This document shows positions 488 to 27,123 of a stretch of 64,000 bases of DNA, one piece after another. Source of the stretch: Naegleria gruberi (lineage: Eukaryota). The position numbers were made by a program, and so were the translations under genes. The stretch lies in the NCBI GenBank assembly GCA_000004985.1, contig GG738885.1; one strand, 5' to 3'. Under the pieces are notes generated by a model. The model saw only the letters and a list, made by a program, of their open reading frames with translations, had not been told where the DNA came from and ran no database searches. How positions within the stretch are numbered: the first letter of the stretch is position 1; each line of letters opens with the position of its first letter.

Positions 488-499
488 ATATTTAAGTCC

Positions 500-938: not shown

Positions 939-988
939 NNNNNNNNNNNNNNNNNNNNNNNNNNNNNNNNNNNNNNNNNNNNNNNNNN
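939..988. other. Assembly gap (50 N)
   Basis: Run of n. Confidence 0.99.
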
Positions 989-1415: not shown

Positions 1416-1419
1416 ATTA

Positions 1420-1901
1420 TAAACTTATTCAAATATCATTAAATTTTATATCATTCGATAGCTAATGATGAGTAGAACAACATGTTATATTTAGTTTATC
1501 AATTTATAAAATATTAACTTTGTAAATAATGTCAGATTAAAATTTGTAAAATGAAACCATAGGAAGAATGATAATTTCAAAATCATTTAATGAGGTTATA
1601 TAGCCAATATCATCATTAACAACATTTATAATCACTTTCATATCAAATACAAAAGTTCAAGTCTGTAGATATAAAAGTATCAAGTGAAAAGGGAAGATGT
1701 GAGGTAAAAGAGGTCAACTATAACTTTTGAGTTTCTCATCAAAACATATTGAAACCTGATATGAAAATGTTCCATTTGATGAGTAAACATCGAATATCAA
1801 ATTTATTTTAACTTTCATATTTAGAGATTTCTTCCCTCAATCACCCATGGTCAATTGTATGAAAAGGTGGAAATCTTGAAAAAGGACCACCTATTGAAAC
1901 T
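1420..1901. repeat. Telomere-associated subtelomeric element, copy B. It extends further than copy A and runs into a gap.
   Basis: Alignable base-for-base with 500-938. Its tail ..aaaaaggaccacctattgaaact recurs at 4052-4072. Confidence 0.7.
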
Positions 1902-4051: not shown

Positions 4052-4395
4052 AGGACCACCTATTGAAACTTTACCAAAATGATATACATGATATATAATG
4101 ATATAGAATTCAATTTCATGTCCAAATAATCAGAAATGGTACCATGGGAAGGTAAATGTTGATATATTATGGATGACTTTAAGGATTGATAGGTCAGATC
4201 ATATCTATCAAATACTTCACTTTAACCAATAAAATAAACATGAAAATGTTCCATTTGATGAGTAGAGATAGAATATCAAGTTTATTTTAACTTTTATATT
4301 CACGATTTCAACTCTAACATGCCATCTGATAAACTATGGACACGGATGAATTTCTGGAAAATGACCACTTTATGAAACATTACCATCATGTTCCA
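4052..4395. repeat. Partial third copy / variant of the subtelomeric element
   Basis: Shares caggaccacctattgaaact, catgaaaatgttccatttgatgagta..atatcaa.tttattttaactt and a gaccac.ttatgaaac variant with copies A/B. Confidence 0.5.
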
Positions 4396-4598: not shown

Positions 4599-5417
4599 NN
4601 NNNNNNNNNNNNNNNNNNNNNNNNNNNNNNNNNNNNNNNNNNNNNNNNNNNNNNNNNNNNNNNNNNNNNNNNNNNNNNNNNNNNNNNNNNNNNNNNNNNN
4701 NNNNNNNNNNNNNNNNNNNNNNNNNNNNNNNNNNNNNNNNNNNNNNNNNNNNNNNNNNNNNNNNNNNNNNNNNNNNNNNNNNNNNNNNNNNNNNNNNNNN
4801 NNNNNNNNNNNNNNNNNNNNNNNNNNNNNNNNNNNNNNNNNNNNNNNNNNNNNNNNNNNNNNNNNNNNNNNNNNNNNNNNNNNNNNNNNNNNNNNNNNNN
4901 NNNNNNNNNNNNNNNNNNNNNNNNNNNNNNNNNNNNNNNNNNNNNNNNNNNNNNNNNNNNNNNNNNNNNNNNNNNNNNNNNNNNNNNNNNNNNNNNNNNN
5001 NNNNNNNNNNNNNNNNNNNNNNNNNNNNNNNNNNNNNNNNNNNNNNNNNNNNNNNNNNNNNNNNNNNNNNNNNNNNNNNNNNNNNNNNNNNNNNNNNNNN
5101 NNNNNNNNNNNNNNNNNNNNNNNNNNNNNNNNNNNNNNNNNNNNNNNNNNNNNNNNNNNNNNNNNNNNNNNNNNNNNNNNNNNNNNNNNNNNNNNNNNNN
5201 NNNNNNNNNNNNNNNNNNNNNNNNNNNNNNNNNNNNNNNNNNNNNNNNNNNNNNNNNNNNNNNNNNNNNNNNNNNNNNNNNNNNNNNNNNNNNNNNNNNN
5301 NNNNNNNNNNNNNNNNNNNNNNNNNNNNNNNNNNNNNNNNNNNNNNNNNNNNNNNNNNNNNNNNNNNNNNNNNNNNNNNNNNNNNNNNNNNNNNNNNNNN
5401 NNNNNNNNNNNNNNNNN
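4599..5417. other. Assembly gap (819 N)
   Basis: Run of n. Confidence 0.99.
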
Positions 5418-6855: not shown

Positions 6856-9800
6856 TTAAACCAACATCCTCACAGAAATACTACCTTGACTTTGTGTAGA
6901 AGTTGTATTGGCTGATTCCTGATATGAATTCTTTGATGGTAGAGAAATCATTTGAGCACGAACAGTCATTTCTACATCATCTGAAGAATTATCCTTCTCC
7001 TCCTGTGGTCTAGTTTTTCTTCTTCTTCCACAACAGCAACAAACACACGAACCCCTACGATAAATAACACCAGCAACTAGTGCAATGAAGAAGCAAGTAA
7101 TCGAAATAAAACAGGTTCCACCAATGACTGTTGAAATAATAATGATATCCTGAGTGGTGAGATAGGTCGTATTGGCAGCTTGGAATGTTCTAAGGGAAGT
7201 ATTTTTCACAACAATCACATTAGAAATGAATAAATCTGAGAATACACAATTACAATCAGTAGTTGAAGTAGCATTATTATAACCAGAAATTGAACATGAG
7301 GAGTAATCATTTCCTAGATCAGATTGAACTCTAACACATGAATAGGAAGAAATATCAAAGATGCCATAATCATCTTTAGAAACACGAATGTGGAATGTAA
7401 CATTTTGTCTCAAACCAACAGCTGTTGTGTTGGATTGAATAGAGAAACTTGTACTAACTGGAGAAACAACTACTATTGTGGAATTTTCATCCTGTTGATT
7501 AATTAACTTTTGTACAATAATTGGAATGTTTTCCTTAACCACAACTGAATAAGTTGCAGAACCAAATGGATTACTATCACTAACAAGAATATCTGGCATG
7601 GTGATATTAACAATGTTTGCTTGGTATTTTCCGTCTGTTGAGGATGGTGAGCCAATCACTGATTGAGAAAGATATTTAACATATTCCTTATCTGCCTTTA
7701 CAATGGAAACACCACTGTTTAATACTACAGCACTTGCACTTACTGGTTCTCCTTTTACAATTGTGAGAGCAAGTTTTTCAGTGAGAGCAGAAATTTCTTC
7801 GTCTCTTGCAAATTGATCTTTCAGGTTTGTAATATTTTCAGAGGCATAGACTAGATTTTCAACAACTGACATGAAAGTTTGAGTTGTCTGAGGTGGAACA
7901 CCAACATTAGTTCTGAAATTTTGTTCCACAATATTCTCAAGAGCATTCACTGATTTTTCAATGACAACTTGCCCAATATTTTGCTCATTCTTTAACATGG
8001 TGTGAATAGCATAGACAATCATTGATGAGGTTGACTCTGAGATTGTTTCTTCTGAAGTAGTTTCAGTTGCATTGGCCAATATATCTAATAAAGTTGTTTG
8101 AATATTAGTAATGGTAGTGGCACTCTTCTCAGATTCAGGTAAAGTTTGTAACATTTGATTAGTTGAAACTATGGTATTAATTGTTTGTGAAATACTTTGA
8201 CTCGAATCACCATCTTTAACAAAGGATGACATGATTGTATTGGTTTGGGTTGTAACTTGCTGAACAATCTGTGTAATTGAAGTCACCACAACACGCATCA
8301 CAGTAACATGGTAATACATAATTCTGAATTCACCTGTTTGAGTATCAGTTAATTCAACGAATATTTTGACAGTTGTTGAATTACTGGTAGAGGAACTAGA
8401 TGATGGCAGTTTCATTGTTTTTTCTTGAGTGAGAGGAATATAAATCATGATGCCTGTATCAACATCAATATAACCTTGTTTGATTTGAATGGTATTTTGT
8501 TGATTTTGACAATTTTGACATGTGAGTGTGAAATCTGTTTGCATGGAAATACCTTCAGAAGGTGAAACAGTACATGGACATTTTTGTGGTTGAGCTGCCT
8601 TTGTGAAACTGTTAGAACTTTCAGTGGAGGCAATTTCAATTTCAGAGCTTTCACTCTTTTGGACATAGGAAGCCTTAAATTGAATGGCATGTGCAACTCC
8701 TTCTTCTAATTGTTTGGAGTTTACAATAATTGCACTTTGTTCATTCTTATTTACAACTTGAATGTTTTCTGAAGTTGGTGAAATAGTAGTAATTGTGGTT
8801 AAAGAATTTGAAGCATAGGATTTGCTTGTGAAACTTTCTGAAACAACACCATTGTCAATCTTCCATTGAGACTTGACAGAAACTGAAGAATCAGTTAAAT
8901 CTTGGTTTGAATGTTGAACTTCAATAGAAATTCGACCATTGCTATTGATAATTGAGTTGGAAGTTGGTTCGACTGCAATGTAAGTTACCATTGGAGGTGA
9001 ATGAACAATATTCAAAGTAATTGAGCTTGATGTTTGTCTTTCACCTTTTGTAATTGTCAAAGTCAGCTTTGGTTTTGTAAGAGTTAGTGTTGAAAAGTCT
9101 TCTTGATTGAAAATTACAATAGAGGAGTGATTCTTTGAGTATAGAGACATCTTATCAAGAATTCCATCACCACAATACCCATTAGTTTCAGAGTTAATAC
9201 ACGTCCATTTCCAAACTTCCTTTTCGTCTACATTATTTTCAGGGTCTTCACTAGAGACTTGAATAACGTTTCTCATAGATGAAGTTTCTTTTAAAGAGAG
9301 AGAAAGTGAAAGATCTGGTTGATAGGTATTAATTATAGCAAAGTCACTAATTGTAGAAGTTTGATTGGCCACAATAATGGTTACCTTAAAGACATATTTC
9401 ACTTTTCCAGAAGCAAACTTTTCAATAATCAAATTTTGATAAGAATCTTTGTGATACCTGATGGATGGTCCTTCAATTTGCTCCCAATCAACATTGATTG
9501 CTTGATCTTTCAAATAGGTTGGCAAATAGGTAACCTTCTTAATAGAAACCAACTTATCAGTTGACTTGAAAGTATTTTGCTTTTCACCAGAAATTAGCAC
9601 AGAGGCCATTTCAACATCTTGAACTTGGAATGCAATTGTTTCAATAGAACTGTATTGGGCTGATATTTGACTCTTTACCTTCAAAATCAATGTATAAACT
9701 CCCTTAATTAATGAACCTTTTTGAATCGTAATGGTTGACAGCTTATTTGATCTAATATTGTTCAAAACTGTAGATGAAATTGAGTCACCTTGAATATCCC

Positions 9801-12800
9801 AAATATATTCCAATTCCTTCTTATCTCCAGAATAACTGTTCGAACCACTAAATATTATATCTTCATAATAACTAAATAATTTCTTTGAGGATGTAACTTG
9901 GGCAACTGGTGGCTTGACTGTTTGTGAAATGATAAAGTAAATTCTAATGTAAATTTCAATAATGGTGGTAGTAATCTTTGAGAATGCATATTTGTTAACT
10001 CTAATATTACTTGATGCTGTTAAACTAAAATCATAATCGAATTGAATCTTAAAATTACCATTTGCCTTATCAGTCCAGAAACATTTTGGCTCTGTACCAA
10101 GCAATTGCAAATCATCAGCGTGAATCAATTTGGAGCATGGAACTGTATTTGCCGTGTATGAAGGTGGAGCAAATAATTTGAGGGTAACTCCATCAAATAG
10201 TTCATTAATTTGAGCGTAAATTTCATTAATATAGGTAGAGTTGAATGATCCAAAGTATGTTGCACAATCACTTCCAAAGTAGCCATTCATACAATCATTA
10301 CAAGAAATTCCATTCCAGTAGCCATTATCTCTATCTTGATAGCAAGAGCATTTACCAGTAATATCACAATTACCATGACCATTACAAGTTGTTTGACCAT
10401 TACAATATATATCACAATTTGGCCCATAGTAATTAGTCTTACACTTTTCACAAATAAATCCATCAAAATTACCTGTACAAACACAAGTATTGTTGCTTCC
10501 ACAAGATCCACCATTCAAACAAGTTGAGACGGTACAAGATCTCTCAGTACATGTTGGACCAGTGTAGGCAGGATGACATGTATTACAATCAGATCCATAA
10601 TAATGACCATTTACATCATCATTAACACATGAACAAGTATTGACATCTACACATTGACCATGTCCTGAACAAACATTAGAGCTACTCTTTGAAATAGAAT
10701 TACAATCAAATTGATCACACTTTTCACCATAGTATCCTGAATTACATATGCATCCTGCTACGCCACTTGTAGAATTGATAAAACATTTACCATGATTTGA
10801 ACAAACTCTAAAATCAGTACTTGAGTAATAATCTTCAACGCCATTATAAATACCTCTACAGAGTAAGTTTTCACAAGAATCGCCTGTAATCTTGACTCCA
10901 GAAATTGACAAGCAGGAACACTTATCAATATCTAAACAAGTACCTCTTCCTGAACAAACCTTTGCATCTGTAGAAGAAATGCCATAACAAGTTTTATCTT
11001 GACAGGCTTGACCTCCGTATCCGAACTGACATGTGCATTTTCCATCACTGGAACATTTACCCTTTCCACTGCAAACAGTTGGATCATCTTGTCTCTTTCC
11101 ATTGCAACTTGTAATATTGCATTTATATCCAAAGAATCCATTTGAGCATTTACATAAATCATTTCCAATACATTCACCATTTCCTGAACAAACTACCTTA
11201 GTTTCCAAACTGGAAATACCAAAACAGTCGAAACTCAAAGTGGTTGTAATTTCTTGCACTGTGGTGATATTTCTAATGACAAGCAAATTATCAATAGCGA
11301 GCTCAGTAAATTGGCAATTACATTTCACAGTAGAAGTTTGCTCATCATAACTTGCAGTACATTGCTTACCATTCAACGACATATCAGATTCTACACCAAC
11401 ACAAGAATATGTGTAAGTAATATTGGTTTGTGGTGGTAATAATGGTAGTTCTTCTACTGACATTTCAACGGTAACATTCTTTGAACTCAATTCATCCAAA
11501 ATTTGACTTGTAACGGTTGTCACATTTTCAACAATGGAGAAGCTTGTACTCACAGAGGACACAACTTCAACAGTGGTGGTAGTGGTAAGTGAGGTTTTAA
11601 TATTTTGAACAATTGTTGTTACAGAGCTGGAAATTGTGGAATCGACAAGCATTGCAGTATTTTCCTCTATTGTCACAGAATAGGTCATTGATGTGAAGTG
11701 ATTATCTTTAGACATAGATTCAATAGCTGGAATGCTGATATTTACAGAAACATCATTTCCAGAAGTGGAAATTGTAGAGTTTGAAAAGTCTGTCAAGTAA
11801 ACCTTGTCAACTACGACAGTTAAGGTTGATGTCTGTAAAATAACAGGATCTGCACTCACAGGTTGTTCAATTACAATGGAGGTAGCAAGATTTTTTGTAA
11901 GAGATGAAACCTTCTCCAAGCTATTGAACTGGGTATTAGTGTTTGTAATATTTTCAATGTTTGTGTAGAGAGTTTCAATAACAGTCAGGAAAGTTTTAGT
12001 CGTTTCTGTTGTTATTTCTACTTGACTCTTTGTAGCTTGTTCAATTGTATTATCCAAAATGGAAATTGATTTATCAATCACGACTGGGTCAAGATTTACT
12101 TCATTCTTTACGATTGATTGAGCAGCATAGACAACCAATGATGTAGTAGTTGCTGTGATAGTTTCAGATATTGTTTCTGTTACAGTTTCCAAAGTATTTA
12201 AAAGATTAGTTTGAATATTTGTAACTAAAGTTGAGCGCTTAGCAGCTTCAGGTAAAGTTTGCAACATTTGATTGATTGAAACTATGGTATTAACAGTTTG
12301 TGAAATACCTTGACTAGAATCACCATCTCTATTGAAATTAGAAATAATTTCACTTGTTTGATTTCTGACTTGTTGAATAACATCAGTCATTGAAGTGGCT
12401 TCAACAGTAGCAACAGTAACATTAGTGTACATCATCCTAGATTCTCCTGTCTTTGTATCAGTTAATTCAATAAACAAGGTCATGGTTTCATTTCTTTGAG
12501 TAGTCAATTGAGAATCTGTAGAAACCAATGCAGGAATTCTCATCACATTGTCTTCATTGAGTGGAACTGGAATTTTAGTATTTGTTTCCTTATCAATATA
12601 ACCTTGTGTAATTTCAATACTGTTTTGTTCGTTTTGACAATTTTGACATGTGAGTGTGAAATCAGTTTGCATGGAAACACCATTCGAAGGTGAAACAAAA
12701 CATGGACATTTTTGTGGTTGAGTTGCCTTTGCGAAATTTGTTGAACTTTCAGTTGACGCAATTTCAATTACTTCTGGAGAGCCATCAATCAAGTTGGATT

Positions 12801-15800
12801 CATTCTTTTGGATATACGAAACTTTCAATTGAATGGAGTGGTCAACTAATTCTTCTAAACCTGCTGCATTAATGATAATTGCACTTTGCTCATTCTTATT
12901 CACAACTTGAATGCTGCTGGACGCTGAGGTCACGGTAGTGGTTGTGGTAATTTGAGAAGTTGTGGTCGATTGCAATGTTGAGGTTTCACTTTGTGAAATT
13001 CCAGTTTCGTCAACTTTCCATTCAGTTTTTACAGAAATGGTAGTATCTGTCAAATCTTGTGAAGATTTTTGAACTTCAATTGAAATCTTATCATTACTAT
13101 TGACAACTTTTGTTGCTACTGGCGAAATTCCAATAATACTAAGAATTGGAGGAGGATGAACAATATTCAAAGTAATGGAACATGAAGCCTTTCTTTCTCC
13201 TTTTGTAATTGTTAAAGTCAACTTTGGTTTTGTAAGAGTTAGAATTGAAAAGTCAGTATAGTTTGCATTTACTACAGCAGCACGATTCTTAGAGTAGAGA
13301 GCTAACTTATCTGTAATACCATCACCACAATAACCATCTGTTTCAGAATTAATACACGACCATTGCCATAACTCAGTTTCGTCTGTGTTGTTTTCTGGAT
13401 CTTGATAATTGACTTGAATTGTTGATGAATAATTAGTCACACTCTTCAATGAAAGATAAAGTGAGAGTTCAGGTTGTTCAGTGTTAATTATCACATAATC
13501 ACTTGATGATAAACTTGAATTTTGTGCAGCTGTAATAGTAATCTTGAAAACGAATTTCCACTTTCCCTTTATGAAACTGTCAATGATCAAATTATTGTAA
13601 GCGTCCTTCTTGAAAGAAAGGGATGGACCTTCAAGTTGTTCCCACTCAATGCTCACAGATGAACCACTTATATAATCTGGAATGGTTGTTGTCTTTTTCA
13701 CAAGTACCAACTTTTCAGTTGACTTGTAAGTTGTTTCCTTATTTCCTGATACAGACACTGAAGGAACGGCATATCCCTGAATTTGGAAACTGAAACTTTC
13801 TTTTGAACTCACTTCATTAGTAACCTTACTTCTCACAATTAATAAAACCTTATAAACTCCAGGAAGTAAATAACCCTTATCAATCTTAATAGATGGTAAC
13901 TTGTTTGCTTGAACCTTGTTTTTAACAATTGCTGGAATGTTATTTCCTTGAATATCCCAAGTATAATCCAATTCCTTCTTATCTCCAGAATAACTGTTAG
14001 TACCACTAAATGCCAAATCCTCGGTTGTGGAATAAACTTTCTTTGTGGATTTAACTTTGGCTACTGGAGGTATTACAGTCTTGGAAAGAATAAAGAAAAC
14101 GGATATGTAATATTCATTGAGAATGGTTGTAGTCGTTGAGAAAATGTAACTATTCAATCTGAAACTGTTACTGCCAGATGACAAATCAAAATCATTATCG
14201 AAATCAAATTGAATGGTAAAGATACCATTTGCCTTATCGGTCCAGAAACATTTAGGTTCTGATCCAAATAATGAAAAATCATCTGGATGAATAAGTTTCG
14301 AACATGTGACCGTATTTGCAGTATAAGTAGACGGAGCAATCAACTTGAATGTAATTGCGTCATAGTAATCAGAAACCTGAGCATAAATATTATCAACTAG
14401 AGTTGAATTGTAAGAACCAACATAGGTCAAACACTTAGTTCCATAATAATTATTTCTACAATAGGCGCATGAAGTTCCATTCCAGTAACCATTGGAGGTA
14501 TCTACATAACATGAACACTTGCCAGCACTTGTGCAACTCCCATGACTATTACAAAATGTTTTAGGATTACAATAAATATCACAATTAGATCCGTATTGAT
14601 AGGTTTTACAACTTTCACAAAGTAGTCCAGTAAAGTTTCCAACACAATTACAAATATTATTGACACATGTTCCTCCATGTAAACAGGTGGAATTGTTGCA
14701 ATATCTTGTCAAACAATTTGCACCAGAGTATGCAGGATGACATGAGCTACATGTTGATCCAGAATAGAAACCTTTAGTGCTATTACTATAACATGAACAA
14801 CTGTTAATTCCAGTGCAAGAACCATGTCCAGAACAAACATTTGTATCATTGTTGGCTAATCCATAACAATTGAATGCTCCACAGTATGTTCCGTAATATC
14901 CTGAATTACATTGACATTTACCTTCAAGAGTTGTTGCATTAATTACACACTTTCCGTGATTTGAACAAGCTCTATAATCAGTGGTAGCGAAATAATCTTC
15001 AACACCATTGTAAACTCCTCTGCAAAGTAAGTTTTCACATGTACTTCCTGTAATCTTGACATTGGTGTTATTAAATACATAACATTGACATTTGTCAACA
15101 TCAACACAAACACCTCTTCCTGAGCAAACATTTGGATCCAAAGATGTTTTACCAAAGCATGTTTTAACTTGACAATCTTTACCTCCATATCCATAAGAGC
15201 ATTGACAATGACCATCTTCAAAACATTTTCCTTTTCCACTGCAAACAGTTGGATTATCTTGTCTCTTTCCATTGCAACTTGTAACATTACATTTAGATCC
15301 AAAGAATCCATTTGAGCATTTACATAAATCATTTCCAATACATTCACCTTTTCCTGAACAAACAACTGTATCCTCAAGGCTTGAAATACCAAAACATGTG
15401 TATTCTTCCATTTCTACTACTTCTTCAATTATGGTTGTTACATTTCTAACAACTACAAGATTTGAAATTTGGAGTTGATTAAAAATACAATTACACTTGA
15501 CACTTGAAGTTGATTCATCATATTCTGCAGTACAATTGTGTGATTCGAGTGACATATTTCCTGTGTTTACACCCATACATGAATAAGAAGAAGAGAATTC
15601 AATGAAATCTCCAGAGTCAACCAACATTTCAATTGACACATTTTGAGAACTCATCAATTGGTTTGCTACTGAACTTTCTGATGTTTCCATGATTGAGAAT
15701 GATGTAATGACAGGAGAAGCAATTTGTAATGTGGTGGTGTTTGTAATATTTGTAAGAATTTGTTGCAAAATAGTTGAAGAATATTCCTCAACAACCATAG

Positions 15801-18800
15801 AGTAAGTTATTTCAACATATTCCGTTTCCATAGTTATAAATGATGGAAGGCTGATATTCACAAGAATAGTTTTGTTTACACTTTCCATTTCTGTGGTTAT
15901 GGATGAAATGACAGAGTCTGAGAGATCGGTAAAATAAATCTTGTCAACTTGGATAGATAAAGAAGAAGTTTGTAAAACAATTGGATCAGCACTCACTGTT
16001 TGCTCCTTAACAATTGAATAAGCTAGGTTTTCAGTCACATTAACCAATTGATCATAAATATTGAGTTGTTCAAGGGTTGATGTAATATTTTCAACACTAC
16101 TTTGCAAATTCTCAACAATTGACATTACAGTTTGACTTGTTTCAGTTGAAATTTGAAGATTACTCTTCACTGCTTGATCAACTACTTCATTCAAAATAGA
16201 AATTGATTTATCAGTAACTACTGGAACAATAATTTCATCGCTCTTAATCACAGAATAAACAGCATAAACAACCATTGATGAAGTTGACTCAATTGAGGTT
16301 TCCACTCTTGTAGTTTCCACAGCACTTGCAAGTGTACTAAGAAGTTGAGTTTGAATTTTAGTAATTGTTTCAGAATCTTGATGTTGAACTTGTGGTAAAC
16401 TTTGCAACAATTGACTTGTTGAAACGATTGTATTAACAGTTTGTGAAATACTTTCAATTGGATTACCATCTTGAATGATAGCTGAAATGATTTCGGTTGT
16501 TTGATTGGAGACCTGTTGCCAAATCTCTTCGGTTGTGTTTACCACAACTGTTGTCACTGTTATATTTGTATACATGGTTCTTGATTCTCCAGATTCTGTA
16601 TCAGTCAATTCAACAAACCATTTAACAGGTGCAGCTTGTGGAGTATTTGAACTAGAGGATACCACAGCAGGGATTTTAACAGTATCCTCCTCTGAGATTG
16701 GTACTTGAATTTTGATTCCAGTTTCACTATCCACATATCCTTGGGTGATTTCGATGGTATTTTGTTCATTTTGACAATTGACACATGAAACTTTGAATTC
16801 TGTTTCCATAGAAACACCATTAGAAGGTGTAATGCTACATGGACATTTTTGTGGTTGAGTTGCCTTTGTAATTGTTGTTGAACTTTCGGTAGAAGCAATT
16901 TCAATTTCTTCTGGAATACCATTAACAATATTAGATTCATTAGTTTGAACATACGAAACTTTCAATGCAATAGTTTTTTCAGTTCCTTCATCAAACTCCC
17001 TGGCATCAATAATAATAGCGCTTTGTGTATTCTTACTAACAACTTGAACATAACTTGAAGTTGATAACATTGTTGTGGTTGTTGAAAAAGAATCTGTTGA
17101 TTCTATTCTTGTAGTTTCACTCTCAGAAACAATGGAAGTGTCAATCTTCCATTCAGTTTTAATAGAAAGTGATGAATCTGATAAATCCTGTTTTGAGTGA
17201 GAGACTTCAATGGAAAACTTCTCATCACTATTGACAACAGATTTAAAGTCTGGAGAAATGTCAATAATATTGAGAATTGGAGGTAAATGAACAATATTCA
17301 AAGTAATGGAACATGAAGCCTTTCTTTCTCCTTTTCTAATGCTTAGAGTAAAAGTTGGTTTCTGTAAAGTTGATAAGGAAAAGTCAGATTTGTCAACTAT
17401 GAAGAGAGTTGAATGGTTCTTGGAATGGAAAGACATTTTGTCTACAACACCATCTCCACAATAACCATCTGTTTCAGAATTAATACACGACCATTGCCAT
17501 AATTCAGTTTCGTCTGTGTTGTTTTCTGGATCTTGATAATTGACTTGAATTGTTGATGAATAATTAGTCACACTCTTCAATGAAAGATAAAGTGAGAGTT
17601 CAGGTTGTTCAGTGTTAATTATCACATAATCACTTGATGATAAACTTGAATTTTTTTCTGGAGTAATTGAAATTTTGAAAACATATTTAAAAGCTCCCTT
17701 AGTGAAACTTTCAATAATCAAATTATTGTAAATATCCTTCTTAAAATCAACATTCGGACCTTCAATTTGTTGCCATTCAATATTCATAGTTTCATTCTTC
17801 AAATAATCTGGAATTGTAGTTGTCTTTTTGATATGAACCGGCTTTTCAGTTGACTTTTGCCTAATTTTCTTACTTCCGTAAATACTAACTGAAGGAACTT
17901 GATATTCTAGAATTTGTAATGTGAAAATATTAATCAAACTCACTTCACTAGTTACTGTACTTCTCACAACTAGTGTCAACTTATAAATTCCCAATTTTAG
18001 CAAACCCTTATCAATCTTAATGGTTGCTTGCTTGTTGGATTTTATGAAATTTTCAACAGTAGAATTGATAGAGTTTCCCTCAATGCTCCAAGTATAATCC
18101 AGTTCTTTCCTATCTCCAGAGAAGGAGTCTGATCCACTAAATATCATATCTTCTGTTTCACTATAAATTCTTTTTGATGACTTCACATCAGCAACTGGAC
18201 TTTTTACAGTATTTGGAGGCATTAAATAAATAATAGTGTCATCTACGATGGTTCTTGTAGAAAAAGCTCCAAGTTTGTTCAATCTTCTTGTAAGTGTAGT
18301 AAATAGATTTCTGTTCACTCTAAAATGGTTTCCTATGACTGACGAAGAGTTTAGAGTAAAATCATAATCGAATTGAATCTTGAAATCACCATTTTCCTTA
18401 TCAATCCAGAAACATTTAGGTTCTGTGCCGAATAATGGTTGATCATCGATGTAAATGAGTTTTGAACATGGAACAGTGTTTGGTAAATAGGAAGGTGGAG
18501 CAAATAGCTTAAATATCACACCATCAAAGAAATCAGTAACTTGAGAATAAATTTCATTGACATAGGTAGAGTTGAATGATTCAAAATGGGCAAAACAATC
18601 GCTTCCAAAGTAACCATTTTGGCATGAGCTGCATGAGCTACCATTCCAGTAACCATTCTTGGTATCTGAGAAACAAATACATTGGCCATCGGATCCACAT
18701 TGGCCATGTCCATTACATGTTGATTGACTATTACAATAGACATTACATTGTGATCCATAACTATTGGATTTACAAGTTTCACAAATCAATCCAGTAAAGT

Positions 18801-21800
18801 TTCCAATACAATCACAACTATTATCAGTTCCACAAGACCCACCATTCATACAAGTTGAACCAGTACATGTTTTAACATTACAATTTGCACCAGTATATGC
18901 AGGATGGCAAGTGTTACAATCAGATCCAGAATAGAAACCATTAGTACTATCACTATAACATGAGCAGGTGTTAATTCCAACACAATCACCATGTCCTGAG
19001 CAAACATGTGAGTTATTCTTGGCAATTGAGTTGCAATTAAACATTTCACACTTGTCTCCGTAATATCCCGCAGCACAGGAACATCCTCCTGTTGAACAGT
19101 TACCGTGCTTTGAGCAAACTCTAAAATCATTGCTTGAATAAAAATCTTCAACGCCATTGTAAACTCCTTTGCAAAGTAAGTTTTCACATTCATCACCAGT
19201 AATCTTTACACTGATGCCATTTGATGAAAAACATTGACACGTGTCAATATCAACACAAACACCTCTTCCTGAGCAAACATTTGGATCCAAAGATGTTTTA
19301 CCAAAGCATGTTTTAACTTGACAATCTTGACCTCCATATCCATAAGAGCATTGACAATGTCCATCTTCAAAACATTTTCCCTTTCCACTGCAAACAGTTG
19401 GATTATCTTGTCTCTTTCCATTGCAACTTGTAACATTACATTTAGATCCAAAGAATCCATTTGAGCATTTACATAAATCATTTCCAATACATTCACCTTT
19501 TCCTGAACAAACTACTGTATCCTCAAGGCTTGAAATTCCAAAGCATTCATAAGTTTGGACTATAACAGCAGTATTCAATGAACAGTCTGCTCCAAAGTAT
19601 CCAGCTGTACAATTACAATTATTTAATGAAGGACAATCACCATGTCCACTACAGACCTGTGATGAATTATATTGAACTCCAGCACATGTGTGGAATTCAC
19701 ATTCAATTCCAAAATATCCGGCATTACATGTACATTTATCCACTTGAGAGCAATTACCACGATTTAAACAAGCGCCATTTAGACCTTTTCCAAAACAAAT
19801 TGGTGATGAACAATCTGCACCTGCCCAATTTTGATTACATGTACAATTGTTTGGAGAGTTACATTGACCATGTGAGGAACAAACTAGTGATGAGTTTGAA
19901 AGAATATTGAAACATTTAGGGAGAGCACACCAATCTCCTCCATACATAGCGTTGCATTGGCAAATACCACCCACACAAGTACCATTAGATGAACATACTG
20001 ATGGGTCATCCTTTGAAATGCCATTACATTTGAGTAGTTGACATTGGTTTCCTTCATAATTAGGAGAACAGGAACATGTATCAACACCAGAACATACCCC
20101 CCAGAACAAACTGATGTTTCGTTTGACAAAATTCCAAAACAGTTTGGATATTGACATTGTGAGCCTCCAAAGTTTGAGTTACATTGACATGAATCCAATC
20201 CAACACATGAACCATGGGAATTGCAAACAGATGAATTGTTTTGTAAAGTTCCATAACAAGTTGTAATTGAACAATTAGATCCATAATAATTTGAAGAGCA
20301 AGTACAAGAGTTGTAATCAACACATGAACCATGCTCAGAACAAACTGATGTTTCGTTTGACAAAATTCCAAAACAATATGGATATTGACATTGTGAGCCT
20401 CCATAGTTTGAGTTACATTGACAGGAGTCCAATCCAACACATGAACCATGGGAATTGCAAACAGATGAATAGTTTTGTAAAGTTCCATAACAAGTTGTAA
20501 TTGAACAATTAGATCCATAATAATTTGAAGAGCATGAGCACGAATTATAATCCATACAAGTACCATGTCCTGAACAAACACTAGAATTGGTTTTTGCTAC
20601 ATAGTAACAATCAAAAATTTCACAGTTAAATCCATAGTAATTTAAGGAGCATGAACAAGTATTAAATGTTGAACATGCACCATGTCCTGAACAAACCTGA
20701 CTTGAATTAGAATAGACTCCATTACATGTTGTTACTGAGCAATTGGCTCCATAATAATTCGATGAGCAGCTACAGGAATTATATGCTGTGCAAGTGCCCT
20801 GATTAGAACAACCAGTAGTAACAGAGTTTGAATATCCATTACATGTCCAAGAAGAACAATTTGAATTAGAATAACCAGTTGCACAGGTGCATGTGTTAAT
20901 GGCTGTGCAGGTACCATGGGAATTGCAAACTGAAATGTCATCAGATCTTTTGGAGTAACAATAGGGTAGATTACAATAACTTCCACCATAATTTGCATCA
21001 CACGTCATGTAAATTTTTCTGAGTTCATCACTTTCTGCAATTAACATCAAGTTGTTATCGCTGGCAAAAGTCAAACCTACAAGTGTATTGAACTTGGTAT
21101 TAGCCAGAGTTTCTCCATCATTATATGTTCCAGCACTATTACCAGCATATGACGTTATTGTACCAGTGTTAGCATTGGCAGTTGCAGGTGTGAAAAGTTT
21201 AAGAGCACCACTCTCAGTGTAGTATACATTACCGTTGTCGTTTACATAAAAGTCTTTGATGGTTACAGAAGAGGTCTTAATTAAGTTAGTTTAACTAGTT
21301 CAATAAAACTTACAGTAAAACGTGTTGCGACTGTTGAAGCAGTGAAAACTTTGAGATAAAACGTTGAACCGATTTGTTGAAAGTAATATATCTTTCCATC
21401 TGACGGTCTTATTGTAAAAGAAACTAAAAGAATTAAATGAAAAGAGAATATCAGATAACTTACATAGTGTTGCAATATTTGCTGATGATGATGCACCATC
21501 AGAAGTGGAGGCACCCCCTCCCAAAACAACTACAATCTTTCCAGTTGATGAGCTGATTTTGTAAATATAGTTGTCTGATGCAAAATAGATCTCACCATTG
21601 TAATATTGTAAATTTTTGGCATTCTAGAATAAAATTGGATATTCATTTCAAAGCAATAGAGAAAAAATACTTACAGTAATAGTACAAGCAGTTGGAGTGT
21701 TTCCATTAACACAATCTGATCCAGAAGCTGCGCCAGCTACTATTGTAACTAAACCCGTGCTCTTTGACAGTAATTTGAGAAAAAATCCAGGTGAATAATT

Positions 21801-23304
21801 ATCGACTATTATCAATTAATTTTGCATGAAAATTCGTATAATACTTACTCATATAGATATCTCCTGTTGGAGTGCATGTCATAGATAGAATGTTAGAATA
21901 TCTAGCAGTCACGTAAGAACCTCCAATATTGTCAGATCCACTTGGGGCTTTGTTGTTATATGGAAGATAAAAATATCCTGCATAATGCTTAATTGTTGAA
22001 CTTGTTAAATTGTAAAACTTAATACTGTTTGTGTCAGCCAAATAAAATCCATCACTGTATAAAGCAATTGCGCTTGGAACCAATTGAAGAGTTTTGGCAT
22101 TTCTTTCATTTAATACATTTCTATAATGTAAAAATGATGACAACGTAGTTCCAACAAGTTTCCTAATGTTGTAATTATTTTCAGCAAAGTAAAGATCACC
22201 ATTAGTCGGATTAATAGTAAAGTATTCAATGTAACCAATTATTGAGGATGATGTAACGGTTCCATCTGCTGACTCACCTCTATATCCGTTACCCAAAACC
22301 TGCTGCACAATTCCACCAGTTGTTAGCTTTCTAATGCTATAATCATATGCATTCCAATAAAGCTCATTATTATAACAATCCATCTTGGTCACAAAGTTGG
22401 TTCCATCCATTAGATAGGAAGTTCCAGAAATACCTGTACTTTTTGAAGAACCACCTCCAACCGCAGTGTTAGCATAAACTGTTCCACCACTTTCCGTCAA
22501 TTTTTGAATATAGAAATTAACGTTATCATTTACATAAGCATATAGGCCTCCATTACAATATTTAATTTGATTTGTATAACCCAATAAACCAGATTTGTAA
22601 ACACTAGCTACATTGGTATTTCCATCAATTTTTCTAATAAGCCAATTGGCTTTTCCAATGTCAAGTAACTCAAAGAATTAACACTTACAATAATCTGCAA
22701 AATAAATATTATCTGAAGGATCTACAGTTATTGATAAAGAAGAACCACTTTGAACCAAGAGAGGATTTGTAACAGTATTGTCAGAGTTTCCATATCCTGC
22801 ACTAAAAATTACCGAAACTTGATTAGTGGATGAATCCAATTTTCTAATTCTCATATTTGCATCAATCCAAATTAAGTGTGTTTTCCATCGTGTTAAGCTT
22901 TTTGGAGTATGGGTTTGAGTGGTTGTGGGATCAGTTGTGTATGTTGTTCCAGGTGTTCCACTTCCAACCTTTACATAAAATTAACCATTAAAAACTTCTA
23001 GAAAACCTACAACTGTTGAAATAATACCCGATGAAAGAGTAATCTTTCTAATTTTTGCTGTCTCGGTCGTGTACAATACTCCAGCCGTAGCATCTAAATA
23101 AATATTTCCAGGATTTATGTAAATACTTGAGATTGCTACATTGTTCAAATCACTTGACATTCCTCCAATTACCATAGATTTGTAGGTTCCTGTACATTCC
23201 ACATACGCATTATTACTAATATTCAAAATAATTATCAAAACACTAAGCAATAAGGCTATGCATGTGATTTCATTCTTTGGTGCTGTTGAATAAAAGCACC
23301 ACAT
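6856..23304 (-). CDS. Giant (~5,400 aa) secreted, single-pass membrane protein. Architecture: signal peptide; beta-propeller-like blades (LYFA[DE]..IRK[LI] motif); long arrays of tenascin-type EGF repeats (CSGHG.C...C.C..GY.G..C); three tandem ~1,385-aa super-repeats each ending in a GPS-like C.C..L motif; Ser/Thr-rich mucin-like segments; TM helix at ~7060-7140; short Cys/Arg-rich cytoplasmic tail.
   Basis: The 13.3-kb uninterrupted ORF 6856..20157 continues upstream as ORF 19884..21074 after a 1-nt frame change in a C6 run at ~20097-20102. Further upstream are six GTAAGT..AG introns of 38-51 nt, at 21276-21313, 21424-21463, 21624-21674, 21806-21848, 22650-22688 and 22969-23009. The start ATG is at 23304-23302, followed by a hydrophobic signal peptide (MWCFYSTAPKNEITCIALLLSVLIIILNIS). 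The stop is at 6856. Removing the 22650-22688 intron regenerates the blade consensus IYFADYSNWLIRKIDG. Confidence 0.75.
7100..19570. repeat. Three tandem ~4,155-bp intragenic repeat units (roughly 19570-15411, 15410-11256 and 11255-7100)
   Basis: The protein motif CFGISSLE[DT].VVCSG.GECIGNDLCKCSNGFFG.KCN.TSCNGKRQD.PTVCSGKGKC recurs at aa ~196, ~1583 and ~2968. Antisense pseudo-ORFs (MVNVLEMIYVNAQMDSLD..) recur at 11180, ~15330 and 19496, about 4.15 kb apart. Units 2 and 3 are more similar to each other than to unit 1. Confidence 0.8.
21276..23009 (-). other. Cluster of six very short spliceosomal introns in the 5' part of the giant gene
   Basis: Each starts GTAAGT (one GTAGGT) and ends in an A/T-rich AG on the minus strand; lengths are 38, 40, 51, 43, 39 and 41 nt. 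Splicing restores continuous propeller-blade reading frames. Confidence 0.65.
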
Positions 23305-24752: not shown

Positions 24753-25898
24753 TTAATCATTCTTTTGATACATGACAGCATATTCATTTTGTTTGACAGC
24801 TTCCCCAACAACCTCAGAATCATTTTCCAATGTTTTAGAGGCAAACCGAATTGCAAGACCTTGCTGTCTAACAGCACAAAGTACAACTTCTCTATCATTG
24901 GTCAAATTATAACTGGCATACTGGAGTGAAAGTCCATTTTGATTAACAGCAGTCAGCACAACCTCTCTATCTTCTAGAAATCTAATTCCAGCTCCATAAA
25001 GCGATTTTCCATTCACCTTAACAGCTTCTATCACAAAATCTCTATCGAGTCTTAGCTGTTGAGCAAACGATAATGCTGTACCATAGTTTCTGATTGCCTC
25101 TAACACAATCTCTCTATCATTTTTCAACTCGTTACTAGCCAGGCCCAGATAAGCTCCATTAATTTGTACTATTTTCAGTATAAATTCTCTATTGTTCCTC
25201 AATGATTCAGTGGCATAATGCAATGCTGTTTCATTTCTAGATTTTTCGTGTTGGTTATTGTCAATTTGGCAGGCCATCAACACAAGCTCAGCATCTCCTC
25301 TTAGATTAGTTGATAAATATTCTAGTGCTCTTCCTCCCGTTTTTCGAATAGACAATTCTGCTATTTCTCTATCATTTCTCAATTCTTCACTAGCAAACTT
25401 CAATGCCTCACTGTTGCCATAAGTGAGAGCACATTTTAATATTTCTTTATCATTTTTCAATTCATCCGAAATGTTTGCATATGTATCAGGATAATATTCC
25501 ATTAATTTCTTTACAAAATATCTATCATTCCACAATCCTAACAAATCGGCATAAACTGATGGATTTTTAGCTTCTTCCAATATAGAATCTAATATAAATC
25601 TCTTATCTTTCACAATGTCTGGCATTGAAACTGCAAAGAAATAATCAAAATTAACTCCATGCTCATTTTCAAATATTTCCATAACTTGTTTTCCTTCAGA
25701 GATAATTTCTTCATCATCATATTCCTCATCAAAATCTTCATCTTCCGAATCATCATCCTCCTGAGCCAAATATAATTTTACAAGATTTTCCAAAGTTTCC
25801 CAAATGTAGAGTTGTTTATCTTTAATGTCTCTCATCTTGTTCATGAGAAAATGTGAAAGTTGGTGATTGTACTGATCTAGAACAATGATTGTTGCCAT
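24753..25898 (-). CDS. DUF4116-repeat protein with an acidic N-terminal region
   Basis: Intronless 381-aa ORF with tandem ~30-aa repeats (..L.NDREVVL.AV.QNG.AL.YAS..L..D.E.V..AV..N) typical of DUF4116. Confidence 0.6.
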   Translation of the reverse strand: MATIIVLDQYNHQLSHFLMNKMRDIKDKQLYIWETLENLVKLYLAQEDDDSEDEDFDEEYDDEEIISEGKQVMEIFENEHGVNFDYFFAVSMPDIVKDKRFILDSILEEAKNPSVYADLLGLWNDRYFVKKLMEYYPDTYANISDELKNDKEILKCALTYGNSEALKFASEELRNDREIAELSIRKTGGRALEYLSTNLRGDAELVLMACQIDNNQHEKSRNETALHYATESLRNNREFILKIVQINGAYLGLASNELKNDREIVLEAIRNYGTALSFAQQLRLDRDFVIEAVKVNGKSLYGAGIRFLEDREVVLTAVNQNGLSLQYASYNLTNDREVVLCAVRQQGLAIRFASKTLENDSEVVGEAVKQNEYAVMYQKND

Positions 25899-25948
25899 TT
25901 TTTTTAATTTTCGTATTTAATTTTCGAATGTTGTACAATCTTGAAGAA

Positions 25949-27123
25949 TCAATGTTGGGTGATTTTAAAAACTTCAATTTCAGCAACCTGAAATGTGCTA
26001 CTTCCAGCCAAATAACTTTTAGCTTCCTCACTTCCATATTGTAATCCAATTGGTAGCTCAAAAGTATTTCCAAAATCAGAACTTGACAATACAGTTGAAA
26101 TGTCAAGGTCAACATCTCCAAATCTAGGTAAATAATTCTTACAAAGACAAATGGCATATTGTTTCTGATTTTGCTTAAAATTGAACTTTTCTAAATGATA
26201 TTTTCCACTAAAATCTTTTACAATTTTAAAAATAAATGCAGATTCATCTGAAACATATTCACCTAATAAGGAATGTGGGGATTTCCAGGATCGAGAGGTA
26301 AAGGCACCAAATATTTGATTGTGTTTTGCTGATTTGATAATTGTCAATGTTGGTCCTTGTAAGTCACATTTCGAATGAAAATGTTTCGAATGGAATCCAT
26401 CTCTAGTTCCTCTATACAATAATTGAGGAATTGCAATGCTGCAAGTATGGGAACATAATTCACTTGACACTGAACAATCACATTCGTTAATAATTATGGA
26501 AGAAACTAATCCAAAATAAACATTTGTTTTGATATTAGTGAGCGAGCATTTGTCGAAAATAATTCCACTCAAATCTTGTGATTGCAGATCAATATTATCA
26601 AATTGAATATTTGCAATATGTTTGTTTGAAAGTCCATTAAAATCAAATAAACATCTGTCAAATTTCAATCCGTTAAAATTTGACAAATCTTTCAAATTTC
26701 GTAAATCTGAATTCTTGATTGTGCAATTATTAAATGAATTATTGGTTGAGTGAAGAATAATTTTAAAATCAATTTCCTCAAATATTGATCCATTGAAATC
26801 GCATTCAATGAATTTACAATTTTGTAAAACTTTTTCCTTTGTAAAGTGAATTTGAATTTTGCATTTTGTAAATTTTGCATTTTCAAATTTAGATTTCTTT
26901 GTAATTGTGTTTGTGAAATTAACATTTTCAAAATTGGAATTTGAGAAACAAGCACTTAAAAAGTTTGAATCTGAAAAGTTGCAACCATTTGAATTACAAT
27001 TAATGAAATATGACTTGGAAAAATCTAATTTTGACAGGTTACTGTTTTGTAATTGCACTTTCTCAAATGTTGTGGAAATAAACTTGGCTTCTTCAAATTT
27101 ACATTGTTCCAAACATGTTTCCA
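25949..27123 (-). CDS. C-terminal half of a pentapeptide-repeat + TLDc-domain protein. It is probably the same gene as 27124..28457, separated by a 1-nt frameshift.
   Basis: ~230 aa of pentapeptide repeats (NFS.SNF....F..) followed by a TLDc domain (LLYRGTRDGF..HFHSKCD..GPTLTIIKS....IFGAFTS..W). Its ATG shares one base with the upstream stop (TAATG), and the upstream ORF ends inside the same pentapeptide-repeat array. Confidence 0.6.

What the first reader, a model, noticed from the sequence alone, without database searches (positions are those of the whole stretch)
6856..23304. A ~16.4-kb gene for a ~5,400-aa single-pass surface protein built from three tandem 1,385-aa super-repeats, each ending in a GPS-like motif
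From N- to C-terminus it combines a signal peptide, NHL-like propeller blades (LYFA[DE]..IRK[LI]), about 40 tenascin-type EGF modules and Ser/Thr-rich mucin-like stretches. Each super-repeat ends with ..SYSC.GV......C.A.YDE.TS.VKCNC.F..L.I.N..V. This resembles the GPS/GAIN cleavage motif (C.C.HLT.FAVLM) that immediately precedes the membrane in adhesion GPCRs and polycystin/REJ proteins. Here the last copy sits about 40 aa before the only TM helix. The three 4,155-bp units are similar enough at the DNA level to create matching antisense pseudo-ORFs. The copy number is therefore assembly-sensitive and probably polymorphic. This is a teneurin/REJ-like adhesion or recognition molecule and a candidate self/non-self or cell-cell adhesion determinant.
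Basis: partly seen in the sequence, partly recalled or inferred. Interest (0 to 1): 0.6.

Follow-up and report, generated by a model that had tools for sequence, protein, structure and literature searches.

The report
Giant Naegleria surface protein, tripled REJ cassette
A subtelomeric gene of the amoeba Naegleria gruberi encodes a roughly 5,400-residue single-pass surface protein whose polycystin-type ectodomain cassette (EGF, PKD-like, REJ and a probable non-cleaving GAIN-like domain) was tripled long ago, but the assembled sequence carries a one-base frameshift that must be resolved before the gene can be called intact.

Summary
The gene is on the minus strand, from ATG 23304 to the stop at 6856. 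It has six short 5' introns, a signal peptide, an NHL propeller region, 36 EGF modules and one TM helix. It contains three tandem super-repeats of about 1,385 aa, and each ends in the same four-cysteine block.

The window is the end of a Naegleria gruberi scaffold. The repeats are old and diverged: 54-60% aa identity, 66-72% nt identity, dS about 0.8-1.1, dN/dS 0.32-0.40. They are therefore neither an assembly artefact nor assembly-sensitive.

Each repeat passes Pfam's REJ threshold on its own. No GPS or GAIN HMM, PDB profile or profile-profile comparison matches the terminal region. A full HMMER scan of 1.84 billion proteins found only N. gruberi paralogs. However, two independent low-confidence AlphaFold models (mean pLDDT about 55) both return GAIN-domain crystal structures as their top Foldseek hits. 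The cysteine spacing also parallels the GPS motif. The catalytic His-Leu|Thr/Ser is absent, so self-cleavage is unlikely.

It truncates the raw reading frame at aa 1036.

Verdict: a new architectural variant of the PKD1/REJ kind, of moderate interest.

The parts
6856..23304 (-). Whole gene: ATG at 23304, stop codon at 6856-6858. It gives 5,379 aa if one G is added at 20097-20102.
22969..23010 (-). Intron 1 (42 nt, GT..AG). It contains an in-frame stop.
22650..22688 (-). Intron 2 (39 nt, GTAAGT..AG)
21749..21848 (-). Intron 3 (100 nt, GTAAGT..TTTAG). Its boundaries are the least certain of the six.
21624..21674 (-). Intron 4 (51 nt)
21424..21463 (-). Intron 5 (40 nt)
21276..21313 (-). Intron 6 (38 nt)
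20970..23304 (-). Signal peptide (aa 12-30 hydrophobic) plus an NHL-type beta-propeller region of about 640 aa, with about 11-12 blades carrying D..N.IRK[IL] motifs
19546..20969 (-). Pre-repeat array of 12 EGF modules (72 Cys). It includes a 234-nt tandem duplication of an EGF pair at 20102-20569.
20097..20102 (-). G6 homopolymer where the reading frame breaks. G7 would restore a six-cysteine EGF module (CFGILSNETSVCSGGVCSGVDTCSC).
15397..19545 (-). Super-repeat 1: 8 EGF, a domain of about 110 aa with no family match, a PKD-like domain, REJ and a GAIN-like domain
11227..15396 (-). Super-repeat 2, with the same architecture
7192..11226 (-). Super-repeat 3, with the same architecture; this is the membrane-proximal copy
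16450..17790 (-). REJ domain of repeat 1 (Pfam PF02010, profile positions 13-446 of 452, 80 bits)
12304..13554 (-). REJ domain of repeat 2 (39 bits)
8191..9255 (-). REJ domain of repeat 3 (53 bits)
13825..14070 (-). PKD-like Ig domain of repeat 2. PKD_4 scores 43 bits in the whole ORF but is below the cut-off when each repeat is scored alone.
15405..16590 (-). GAIN-like region of repeat 1 (7-8 helices, then a beta subdomain). It is internal and is followed directly by the EGFs of repeat 2.
11235..12447 (-). GAIN-like region of repeat 2 (assigned by homology, 46-48% identical to the other two)
7152..8334 (-). GAIN-like region of repeat 3 (juxtamembrane)
15448..15579 (-). GPS-like four-Cys block of repeat 1 (C-x14-C-x12-CNC-IFNQLQISNLVVV)
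11275..11403 (-). GPS-like block of repeat 2 (CNC-QFTELAIDNLLVI)
7207..7338 (-). GPS-like block of repeat 3 (C-x13-C-x13-CNC-VFSDLFISNVIVV), ending 34 aa before the TM helix
7060..7146 (-). The single transmembrane helix (IIIISTVIGGTCFISITCFFIALVAGVIY)
6859..7059 (-). Cytoplasmic tail of 67 aa with a juxtamembrane CVCCCC cluster and RRRK. It has no domain match.
19249..19512 (-). Gene-conversion tract: 98.9% identical to 15100-15363 in repeat 2, against a background of about 70%

Best explanation
This is a gene of a small Naegleria gruberi family with at least five loci.

The family's basic architecture is: signal peptide, NHL beta-propeller head, EGF rod, [PKD-like, REJ, GAIN-like], one TM helix, and a short Cys-rich basic tail. 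In this gene the cassette of 8 EGF, PKD-like, REJ and GAIN-like domains was duplicated twice in tandem long ago. All three copies have since been kept under purifying selection, with occasional short gene conversion.

Inferred from domain composition: the product is most likely a very long type I adhesion or recognition glycoprotein. The distal NHL propellers would bind a ligand on substrate, prey or another cell. The EGF, PKD and REJ beta-sandwich arrays would form an extended, mechanically compliant stalk.

Shown at fold level only, with low-confidence models: the domain after each REJ is the counterpart of the GAIN domain that follows REJ in polycystin-1-type proteins. It lacks the catalytic His-Leu|Thr/Ser and the conserved Trp residues. 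It therefore probably acts as a non-cleaving structural cap, not as an autoproteolytic tethered-agonist switch. With one TM helix and a 67-aa tail there is no 7TM or 11TM module to receive such an agonist.

The frameshift at 20097-20102 is more likely a homopolymer or repeat-edge sequence error than a real lesion, but this is not shown.
For: - Organism: six neighbouring ORFs match N. gruberi proteins exactly.
- Architecture: REJ passes the Pfam cut-off in each repeat. EGF_TEN scores 151 bits. The NHL region is supported by homology. There is one TM helix.
- Family: single-unit paralogs P0004/P0005 and P0002, and an 86%-identical copy P0003.
- Age and constraint of the triplication: 54-60% aa and 66-72% nt identity, dS 0.76-1.10, dN/dS 0.32-0.40. 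Conversion tracts are seen.
- GAIN-like, R3 model: top Foldseek PDB hits are 4dlo BAI3 GAIN (E=8.5e-5, 309-312 columns), CELSR1 GAIN and CL1 GAIN.
- GAIN-like, independent R1 model: the top four hits are all GAIN (4dlo 8.3e-6, GPR110, CELSR1).
- Secondary structure: 7-8 helices followed by a beta subdomain ending in five strands, with the CxC strand, a turn and a last strand. PKD1-type GAINs have up to eight subdomain-A helices (PMC11697300).
- Cysteine frame: C-x13/14-C-x12/13-C-x-C, against the canonical C-x18-C-x11/12-C-x-C.
- Position: it sits REJ, then this domain, then TM, as in polycystin-1 (PMC4810088).
- Frameshift repair: adding one G gives exactly 72 Cys = 12 EGF modules and a 13.3-kb downstream ORF with no stop.
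Against: - No sequence method links the terminal region to GPS or GAIN: Pfam at E<=10, PDB profiles, hhalign probability 0.7%.
- A 1.84-billion-protein HMMER scan gives only three N. gruberi-type hits.
- The models are poor: mean pLDDT is 55-57 and the beta subdomain scores 25-60. TM-scores to GAIN are only 0.26-0.43.
- The alignment behind the models has only 4-5 related sequences.
- The function is inferred from domain composition alone. No expression or localisation data were available.
- As assembled, the gene is frameshifted, so it may be a pseudogene.
Confidence: 0.6

Rival explanations
1. The locus is a recently inactivated subtelomeric pseudogene. The G-run frameshift is real. Only a secreted NHL-EGF fragment of 1,036 aa, or nothing, is made. 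The three REJ cassettes are untranslated relics.
For: - The raw spliced frame stops at aa 1036, and no intron repairs it (sequence).
- The gene lies about 5 kb from telomere repeats and assembly gaps.
- I could not retrieve an N. gruberi protein model for this gene.
- An 86%-identical second copy exists that could carry the function.
Against: - The 4,433-codon ORF downstream has no stop in a 33% GC genome. Any inactivation would therefore have to be very recent.
- The break is a single-base change in a G6 homopolymer, exactly at the 3' edge of a 92%-identical 234-nt tandem duplication. That is a typical place for consensus errors.
- The scaffold end shows other assembly oddities.
Confidence: 0.3
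2. The region after REJ is not GAIN-derived. It is a lineage-specific alpha-plus-beta domain whose four cysteines and terminal strands resemble GPS only by chance. The Foldseek hits reflect a generic helical bundle plus a poorly modelled sheet.
For: - All sequence-level tests are negative.
- TM-scores are low and so is pLDDT.
- The Trp residues and the HL|T site that mark GPS are absent.
Against: - Two models built from different repeats (40% identical) each place GAIN structures first out of 350,542 PDB chains. The alignments cover 309-358 columns, that is both subdomains.
- The domain sits exactly where GAIN sits in every other REJ protein, and GAIN domains are known for low sequence conservation (PMC11697300, PMC4810088).
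Confidence: 0.3
3. The GAIN-like domains are catalytically active with a non-canonical site (Phe|Thr in repeat 2, Phe|Ser in repeat 3). The protein is processed into non-covalently held fragments that can be shed under force.
For: - Repeats 2 and 3, and P0003, carry Thr or Ser at the position directly after the invariant Phe, in the turn between the last two strands.
- Some GAIN domains cleave without a canonical triad. This rests on my own knowledge and was not checked here.
Against: - The nucleophile position is not conserved: Asn in repeat 1 and Glu in P0001.
- No His or other base sits at -2, and Leu at -1 is replaced by Phe.
- The Leu-pocket mechanism described for HL|T (PMC4810088) has no counterpart here.
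Confidence: 0.1
4. The triplication is an assembly artefact, produced by collapse or expansion of a repeat.
For: The scaffold end contains gaps and duplicated telomere or subtelomere segments.
Against: - The units differ at about 30% of nucleotides and 40-46% of residues, and they carry their own indels.
- Identical tracts are at most about 300 nt.
- An assembler cannot create such divergent copies.
Confidence: 0.03

Closest known systems
Polycystin-1 / PKD1-like proteins (PC1, PKDREJ, PKD1L1-3, Ciona s-Themis)
   Same: The ectodomain core has the same order: PKD-type Ig domain, REJ module, a GAIN-position domain, then the membrane. REJ matches the Pfam model nearly end to end (13-446 of 452). 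The subdomain-A helix count (7-8) fits the extended PKD1-type GAIN (PMC11697300).
   Different: There is one TM helix instead of 5 or 11. There is no PLAT/LH2 domain, no channel-like domain and no HL|T site. The cassette is present three times in tandem, with two copies far from the membrane. The N-terminal head is an NHL propeller plus EGFs, not LRR, C-type lectin or PKD repeats.
Sea urchin receptor for egg jelly 1 (suREJ1)
   Same: A REJ-containing surface receptor that binds an extracellular polymer (PMC9265791). By my recollection it has an EGF module and a single TM segment, which makes it the nearest single-pass analogue.
   Different: suREJ1 has C-type lectin domains and one REJ module. 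It has no NHL propeller, no long EGF arrays and no tandem cassette. I could not verify its GPS status with the tools.
Adhesion GPCR GAIN domains (BAI3 4DLO, CELSR1 8VY2, GPR110 8HC0, latrophilin 4DLQ)
   Same: These are the best structural matches to the models of repeats 1 and 3. The region is two-subdomain alpha-then-beta, has a four-Cys frame before the last strand, and is juxtamembrane in repeat 3. BAI3 and CELSR1 are themselves non-cleaving or poorly cleaving.
   Different: No 7TM follows. There is no detectable sequence similarity. The Trp residues and catalytic triad are absent. Two of the three copies are internal.
Teneurins
   Same: The EGF modules are of the teneurin type (PF25024 at 151 bits, PF23106). 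There is a weak TEN_NHL match, and both proteins have an NHL propeller.
   Different: Teneurins are type II proteins with EGFs before the NHL region, a YD shell and a toxin-like C-terminus. None of these is present here, the domain order is reversed, and the topology is type I.

Membership tests
PKD1/REJ (polycystin-1-like) family | REJ module | tested here: met
   PF02010 scores E=1.4e-40 on the ORF. Each repeat alone scores 80, 39 and 53 bits against a cut-off of 25.
PKD1/REJ (polycystin-1-like) family | GAIN domain with GPS motif between REJ and the first TM helix | tested here: inconclusive
   At fold level, GAIN structures are the top Foldseek hits for two models, but pLDDT is about 55 and TM-scores are 0.26-0.43. 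No GPS or GAIN HMM hit. hhalign probability is 0.7%.
PKD1/REJ (polycystin-1-like) family | His-Leu|Thr/Ser autoproteolysis site | tested here: not met
   The sequence after CxC is x-F-[NTSE]-[QEDS]. There is no His and the nucleophile is not conserved.
PKD1/REJ (polycystin-1-like) family | Multi-pass (5 or 11 TM) membrane domain with PLAT/LH2 after TM1 | tested here: not met
   There is one hydrophobic segment besides the signal peptide. The 67-aa tail has no Pfam match.
Adhesion GPCR | Seven-transmembrane class B2 domain directly after GAIN | tested here: not met
   There is a single TM helix and no 7tm_2 Pfam hit.
GAIN domain (as a fold) | About 320 aa, with a helical subdomain A followed by a beta-sandwich subdomain B whose last five strands form the GPS | tested here: inconclusive
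   The models show 7-8 helices, then 10-11 strands ending in five strands. GAIN structures are the top hits. The beta part is modelled with low confidence.
GAIN domain (as a fold) | Two disulfides pinning the turn (C1-C3, C2-C4) and two conserved Trp residues | tested here: inconclusive
   Four invariant Cys residues have GPS-like spacing. Disulfide pairing cannot be tested here. Both Trp positions are absent.
GAIN domain (as a fold) | Position immediately before the first TM helix | tested here: inconclusive
   Met for repeat 3, where the helix begins 34 aa after C4. Not met for repeats 1 and 2, which are followed by EGF modules.
Teneurin | Type II topology with N-terminal cytoplasmic domain, EGF then NHL then YD shell then Tox-GHH | tested here: not met
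   The protein has an N-terminal signal peptide and a C-terminal TM helix. NHL precedes the EGFs. There are no YD or Tox Pfam hits.
NHL-repeat beta-propeller | Sequence homology to NHL repeat proteins across several blades | tested here: met
   152 homologs down to E=1.7e-30, covering up to 96% of the 674-aa region, all carrying PF01436/PF25021. The direct Pfam hit is weak: TEN_NHL at 20.6 bits against a cut-off of 27.1.

The most novel reading that the evidence does not exclude
The REJ plus GAIN pair is an ancient, self-contained ectodomain cassette that exists in a discoban protist outside any multi-pass receptor. It can be duplicated in tandem, so that GAIN-type domains sit in the middle of an ectodomain, and it functions without autoproteolysis. 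If so, the ancestral role of the GAIN fold was structural or mechanical, and self-cleavage and tethered agonism were later additions. The current view that GAIN occurs only in adhesion GPCRs and PKD1-like multi-pass proteins (PMC11697300) would then be too narrow.
Probability: 0.35. Interest if true: 0.65.

Novelty: new variant of a known kind. Interest (0 to 1): 0.45.

Why it matters
GAIN and REJ domains are studied almost entirely in animal adhesion GPCRs and polycystins, where they govern self-cleavage, mechanosensing and disease.

A free-living heterolobosean amoeba that carries the PKD-REJ-GAIN-like core on a single-pass protein would extend the known range of architectures for this cassette. 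Here the core is tripled in tandem and apparently lacks the catalytic site. It would also give a natural test case for what a GAIN-type fold does when it cannot cleave and has no receptor core to activate.

For Naegleria biology, the finding points to a lineage-restricted, subtelomeric, gene-converting family of giant surface proteins. These are candidates for adhesion or recognition. No relatives of the GAIN-like region were detectable among 1.84 billion representative proteins.

The practical caveat is that the reference sequence is frameshifted here and needs checking.

Tried and rejected
- Pfam scans of the three terminal regions, and of P0001, at E<=10 found no GPS or GAIN family.
- Profile searches of PDB sequences with the GAIN-like region, the GPS-like block and the whole PKD-REJ-GAIN-like alignment returned only noise.
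- hhalign of the GPS-like block against canonical GPS motifs taken from PDB chains gave probability 0.7%, aligning 6 unrelated columns.
- A full HMMER scan of 1.84 billion representatives with the GAIN-like profile found only P0001, P0003 and P0002.
- Word-indexed searches with a single sequence and with a 5-sequence profile found only P0001 and P0002. I therefore had no bridging sequences and no deeper alignment for structure prediction.
- JGI metagenome scans were empty, both for the exact DNA around the frameshift and for relatives of the cassette.
- Exact look-ups of the ORF, a neighbouring gene, P0002 and P0003 in the gene-position index gave nothing on record, so the paralog loci and the official gene model could not be read.
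- I tried to rescue the frameshift with an intron. The candidate GT..AG pairs near 20100 either have the wrong length modulo 3 or create a stop (reasoned). Rejected.
- I considered the triplication as an assembly artefact. Rejected on divergence.
- I considered teneurin membership. Rejected on topology and missing domains.

Full report
**What the window is.**
Six ORFs downstream of the finding are identical to annotated Naegleria gruberi proteins (EFC41438-41440, EFC41528, EFC41532, EFC41533) on a 362,555-bp scaffold. The window begins with (CCCAAA)n telomere-type repeats, subtelomeric elements and N gaps. The gene therefore lies about 5 kb from a chromosome end. GC content is about 33% throughout.

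**Checking the observation.**
- The gene is on the minus strand. One ORF of 4,433 codons runs from 20157 to the stop at 6856.
- Upstream, coding segments in changing frames reach an ATG at 23304. I joined them with six GT..AG introns of 42, 39, 100, 51, 40 and 38 nt, four of which start GTAAGT.
- Direct-repeat analysis and protein alignment show three tandem units starting at 19545, 15396 and 11226, of 1,383, 1,390 and about 1,345 aa.
The invariant positions are Y-S-C ... C ... C-N-C-x-F ... I-x-N ... V.
- A hydropathy scan finds only two hydrophobic segments. One is an N-terminal signal-like segment (aa 12-30). The other is a single TM helix (full-length aa 5284-5312), 34 residues after the last CNC. 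A 67-aa tail follows, beginning RRGSCVCCCCGRRRK.
- Cysteine counts give 12 EGF modules before the repeats and 8 in each repeat, 36 in all.

The exon that carries the EGF array is out of register with the long ORF at a G6 run (20097-20102). The raw spliced sequence terminates at aa 1036. Adding one G gives 5,379 aa and turns the junction into a regular six-cysteine module, so that the pre-repeat array has exactly 72 Cys. The candidate introns I checked near the site either have the wrong length modulo 3 or create a stop (sequence).

The break lies exactly at the 3' edge of a 234-nt tandem duplication of an EGF pair whose copies are 92% identical (family D5). The 13.3-kb ORF downstream is completely open. 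I therefore think a consensus error is more likely than a real lesion, but I could not test this. The exact-DNA scan of metagenomes was empty, and the gene-position index does not hold this genome.

**Age of the triplication.**
- The units are 54-60% identical in protein and 66-72% in DNA.
- Synonymous divergence is 0.76-1.10 and dN/dS is 0.32-0.40. The EGF part is the most constrained and the terminal region the least.
- Two short tracts between units 1 and 2 are nearly identical, for example 19249-19512 against 15100-15363 at 98.9%. These look like gene conversion.
- The triplication is therefore old, selected and not an assembly product.

**Domain content.**
- Pfam finds teneurin-type EGF (151 bits), REJ (E=1.4e-40, nearly full model length) and a PKD domain on the long ORF.
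- Scored alone, each repeat passes the REJ cut-off (80, 39 and 53 bits against 25). PKD_4 is sub-threshold for each repeat alone.
- The N-terminal 674 aa has only a weak direct TEN_NHL hit. However, it has 152 homologs down to E=1.7e-30, mostly bacterial NHL-repeat proteins carrying PF01436/PF25021, that cover up to 96% of the region.
- Seven clear D..N.IRK[IL]-type blade motifs, plus degenerate ones, are visible.
- The signal peptide, NHL, EGF and REJ parts of the interpretation therefore stand.

**The GPS/GAIN question, sequence level.**
Every test was negative.
- No GPS or GAIN Pfam family appeared at E<=10 on any of the three terminal regions or on paralog P0001.
- PDB profile searches returned nothing relevant.
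- hhalign against canonical GPS motifs gave 0.7% probability.
- A full HMMER scan of 1.84 billion representative proteins with a profile of the region found only three proteins, all N. gruberi-type.
- The two conserved GPS tryptophans are absent.
- The His-Leu|Thr/Ser tripeptide is replaced by x-Phe-[N/T/S/E] followed by [Q/E/D/S].

**The GPS/GAIN question, fold level.**
- I predicted the post-REJ region of repeat 3 and, independently, of the internal repeat 1, which are 40% identical. The alignments had five sequences.
- Both models are poor overall (mean pLDDT 56.7 and 55.0). The helical half is reasonable (pLDDT 70-89) and the beta half is weak (25-66).
- Even so, Foldseek against 350,542 PDB chains put GAIN domains first for both.
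  - Repeat 3: BAI3 4DLO at E=8.5e-5 and 2.4e-4, then CELSR1 at 1.6e-3.
  - Repeat 1: BAI3 at 8.3e-6, GPR110 at 4.2e-4 and CELSR1 at 1.8e-3.
  - Alignments span 309-358 columns, but TM-scores are only 0.26-0.43.
- The predicted secondary structure is 7-8 helices followed by a beta subdomain. The subdomain's last five strands carry C1, C2 and the C3-x-C4 strand, then a five-residue turn and a final hydrophobic strand.
- That topology matches the description of GPS: five strands, with the cleavage turn between the last two, pinned by two disulfides (PMC3321182, PMC4810088).
- The cysteine spacing is C-x13/14-C-x12/13-C-x-C. Canonical motifs read from PDB chains are C-x18-C-x11/12-C-x-C.
- PKD1-type GAIN domains are reported to have up to eight subdomain-A helices and have no experimental structure yet (PMC11697300). 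That could explain the modest superposition on adhesion-GPCR GAINs.
- The region also sits where GAIN sits in other REJ proteins, between REJ and the membrane.
- Weighing these points, I put the probability that this is a diverged GAIN-type domain at about 0.6-0.65. I judge it very likely non-cleaving.

**The family.**
- N. gruberi has single-unit paralogs with the same layout. P0004 (NAEGRDRAFT_71165, 1,843 aa) has a signal peptide, propeller, about 6 EGFs, REJ, the same terminal block, a TM helix and a Cys-rich basic tail. P0005 is adjacent and nearly identical to the C-terminal 1,071 residues of P0004.
- P0002 (NAEGRDRAFT_48552) is a truncated model.
- P0003 (NAEGRDRAFT_76569) is 86% identical to the last 565 aa of the window protein and lies on a separate 9.8-kb scaffold. 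It is a second copy or a divergent allele.
- The C.C.F..[LW].I.N block is conserved in all of them.
- No relatives of the cassette were found in JGI metagenomes.
- N. fowleri has NHL proteins (P0083), but no protein matching the GAIN-like profile was found.

**How it most likely works.**
- Shown: it is a type I, heavily cysteine-bridged protein with 89 N-glycosylation sequons. It has a distal NHL propeller region, 36 EGFs and three PKD-like, REJ and GAIN-like units.
- Inferred: it is a long-reach adhesion or recognition receptor. The propellers bind ligand. The EGF and beta-sandwich arrays form an extensible stalk. The GAIN-like domains act as rigid or mechanically yielding caps, not as cleavage switches. 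Non-cleavable BAI3 GAIN also unfolds partially under low force (PMC13197933).
- The tail offers only a palmitoylation-like Cys cluster and a basic patch.
- REJ proteins serve in gamete recognition in sea urchin and in self/non-self discrimination in Ciona (PMC9265791).

**Comparison and novelty.**
- The protein shares the PKD-REJ-GAIN-position core with polycystin-1-type proteins. It fails their other defining features: multi-pass membrane domain, PLAT and HL|T.
- It is not an adhesion GPCR, because it has no 7TM.
- It is not a teneurin, because the topology and domain order are opposite and there is no YD shell.
- The closest analogue is a single-pass REJ receptor such as suREJ1. This comparison rests on my recollection and was only partly checked.
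- I found no paper in the held library linking Naegleria with REJ or GAIN domains.
- I rate it a new architectural variant of a known kind. It is of moderate interest, and the claim is limited by weak structural models and an unresolved frameshift.

Noticed in passing
window 1-1900: There are two (CCCAAA)n telomere-type arrays (1-480 and 988-1370). Each is followed by the same subtelomeric element of about 400 bp (538-938 against 1438-1836, 89-93% identical). An N gap separates them. This looks like two chromosome ends or haplotypes scaffolded in series. A partial third copy of the element lies at 4240-4300.
   Followed up: partly
window 1902-3491 and 4600-5417: Large N gaps lie between the telomeric end and the gene, so the distance to the telomere and the 3' flank of the gene are uncertain.
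   Followed up: no
window 20102-20569: A tandem duplication of a 234-nt unit encoding a pair of EGF modules, with copies 92% identical. The frameshifting G6 run sits exactly at its 3' edge, which suggests a consensus or collapse problem there.
   Followed up: partly
window 6859-7059: The cytoplasmic tail begins with a juxtamembrane cysteine cluster (CVCCCC) and RRRK. Paralog P0004 has a similar LLCCVYCVKKRK. This is a palmitoylation-like signature conserved in the family.
   Followed up: no
window 24753-28218 and 32902-54869: The neighbouring genes encode a DUF4116 repeat protein, two pentapeptide-repeat proteins (one with TLDc, one with BTB), three RGS-domain proteins, a LysM protein and a C2orf69-like protein.
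   Followed up: partly
L001 (ENA metagenome contig ERZ929261, 5,299 nt): A contig labelled as metagenome encodes P0001, which falls in the same 90% cluster as N. gruberi NAEGRDRAFT_71165. Naegleria gruberi-like DNA is therefore present in that sample.
   Followed up: no
window 17287-17654 vs 13156-13523: A second region of raised identity between repeats 1 and 2, inside the REJ part. It is 87% identical over 368 nt, with a core of about 150 nt near 99%. This points to recurrent short gene conversion.
   Followed up: partly
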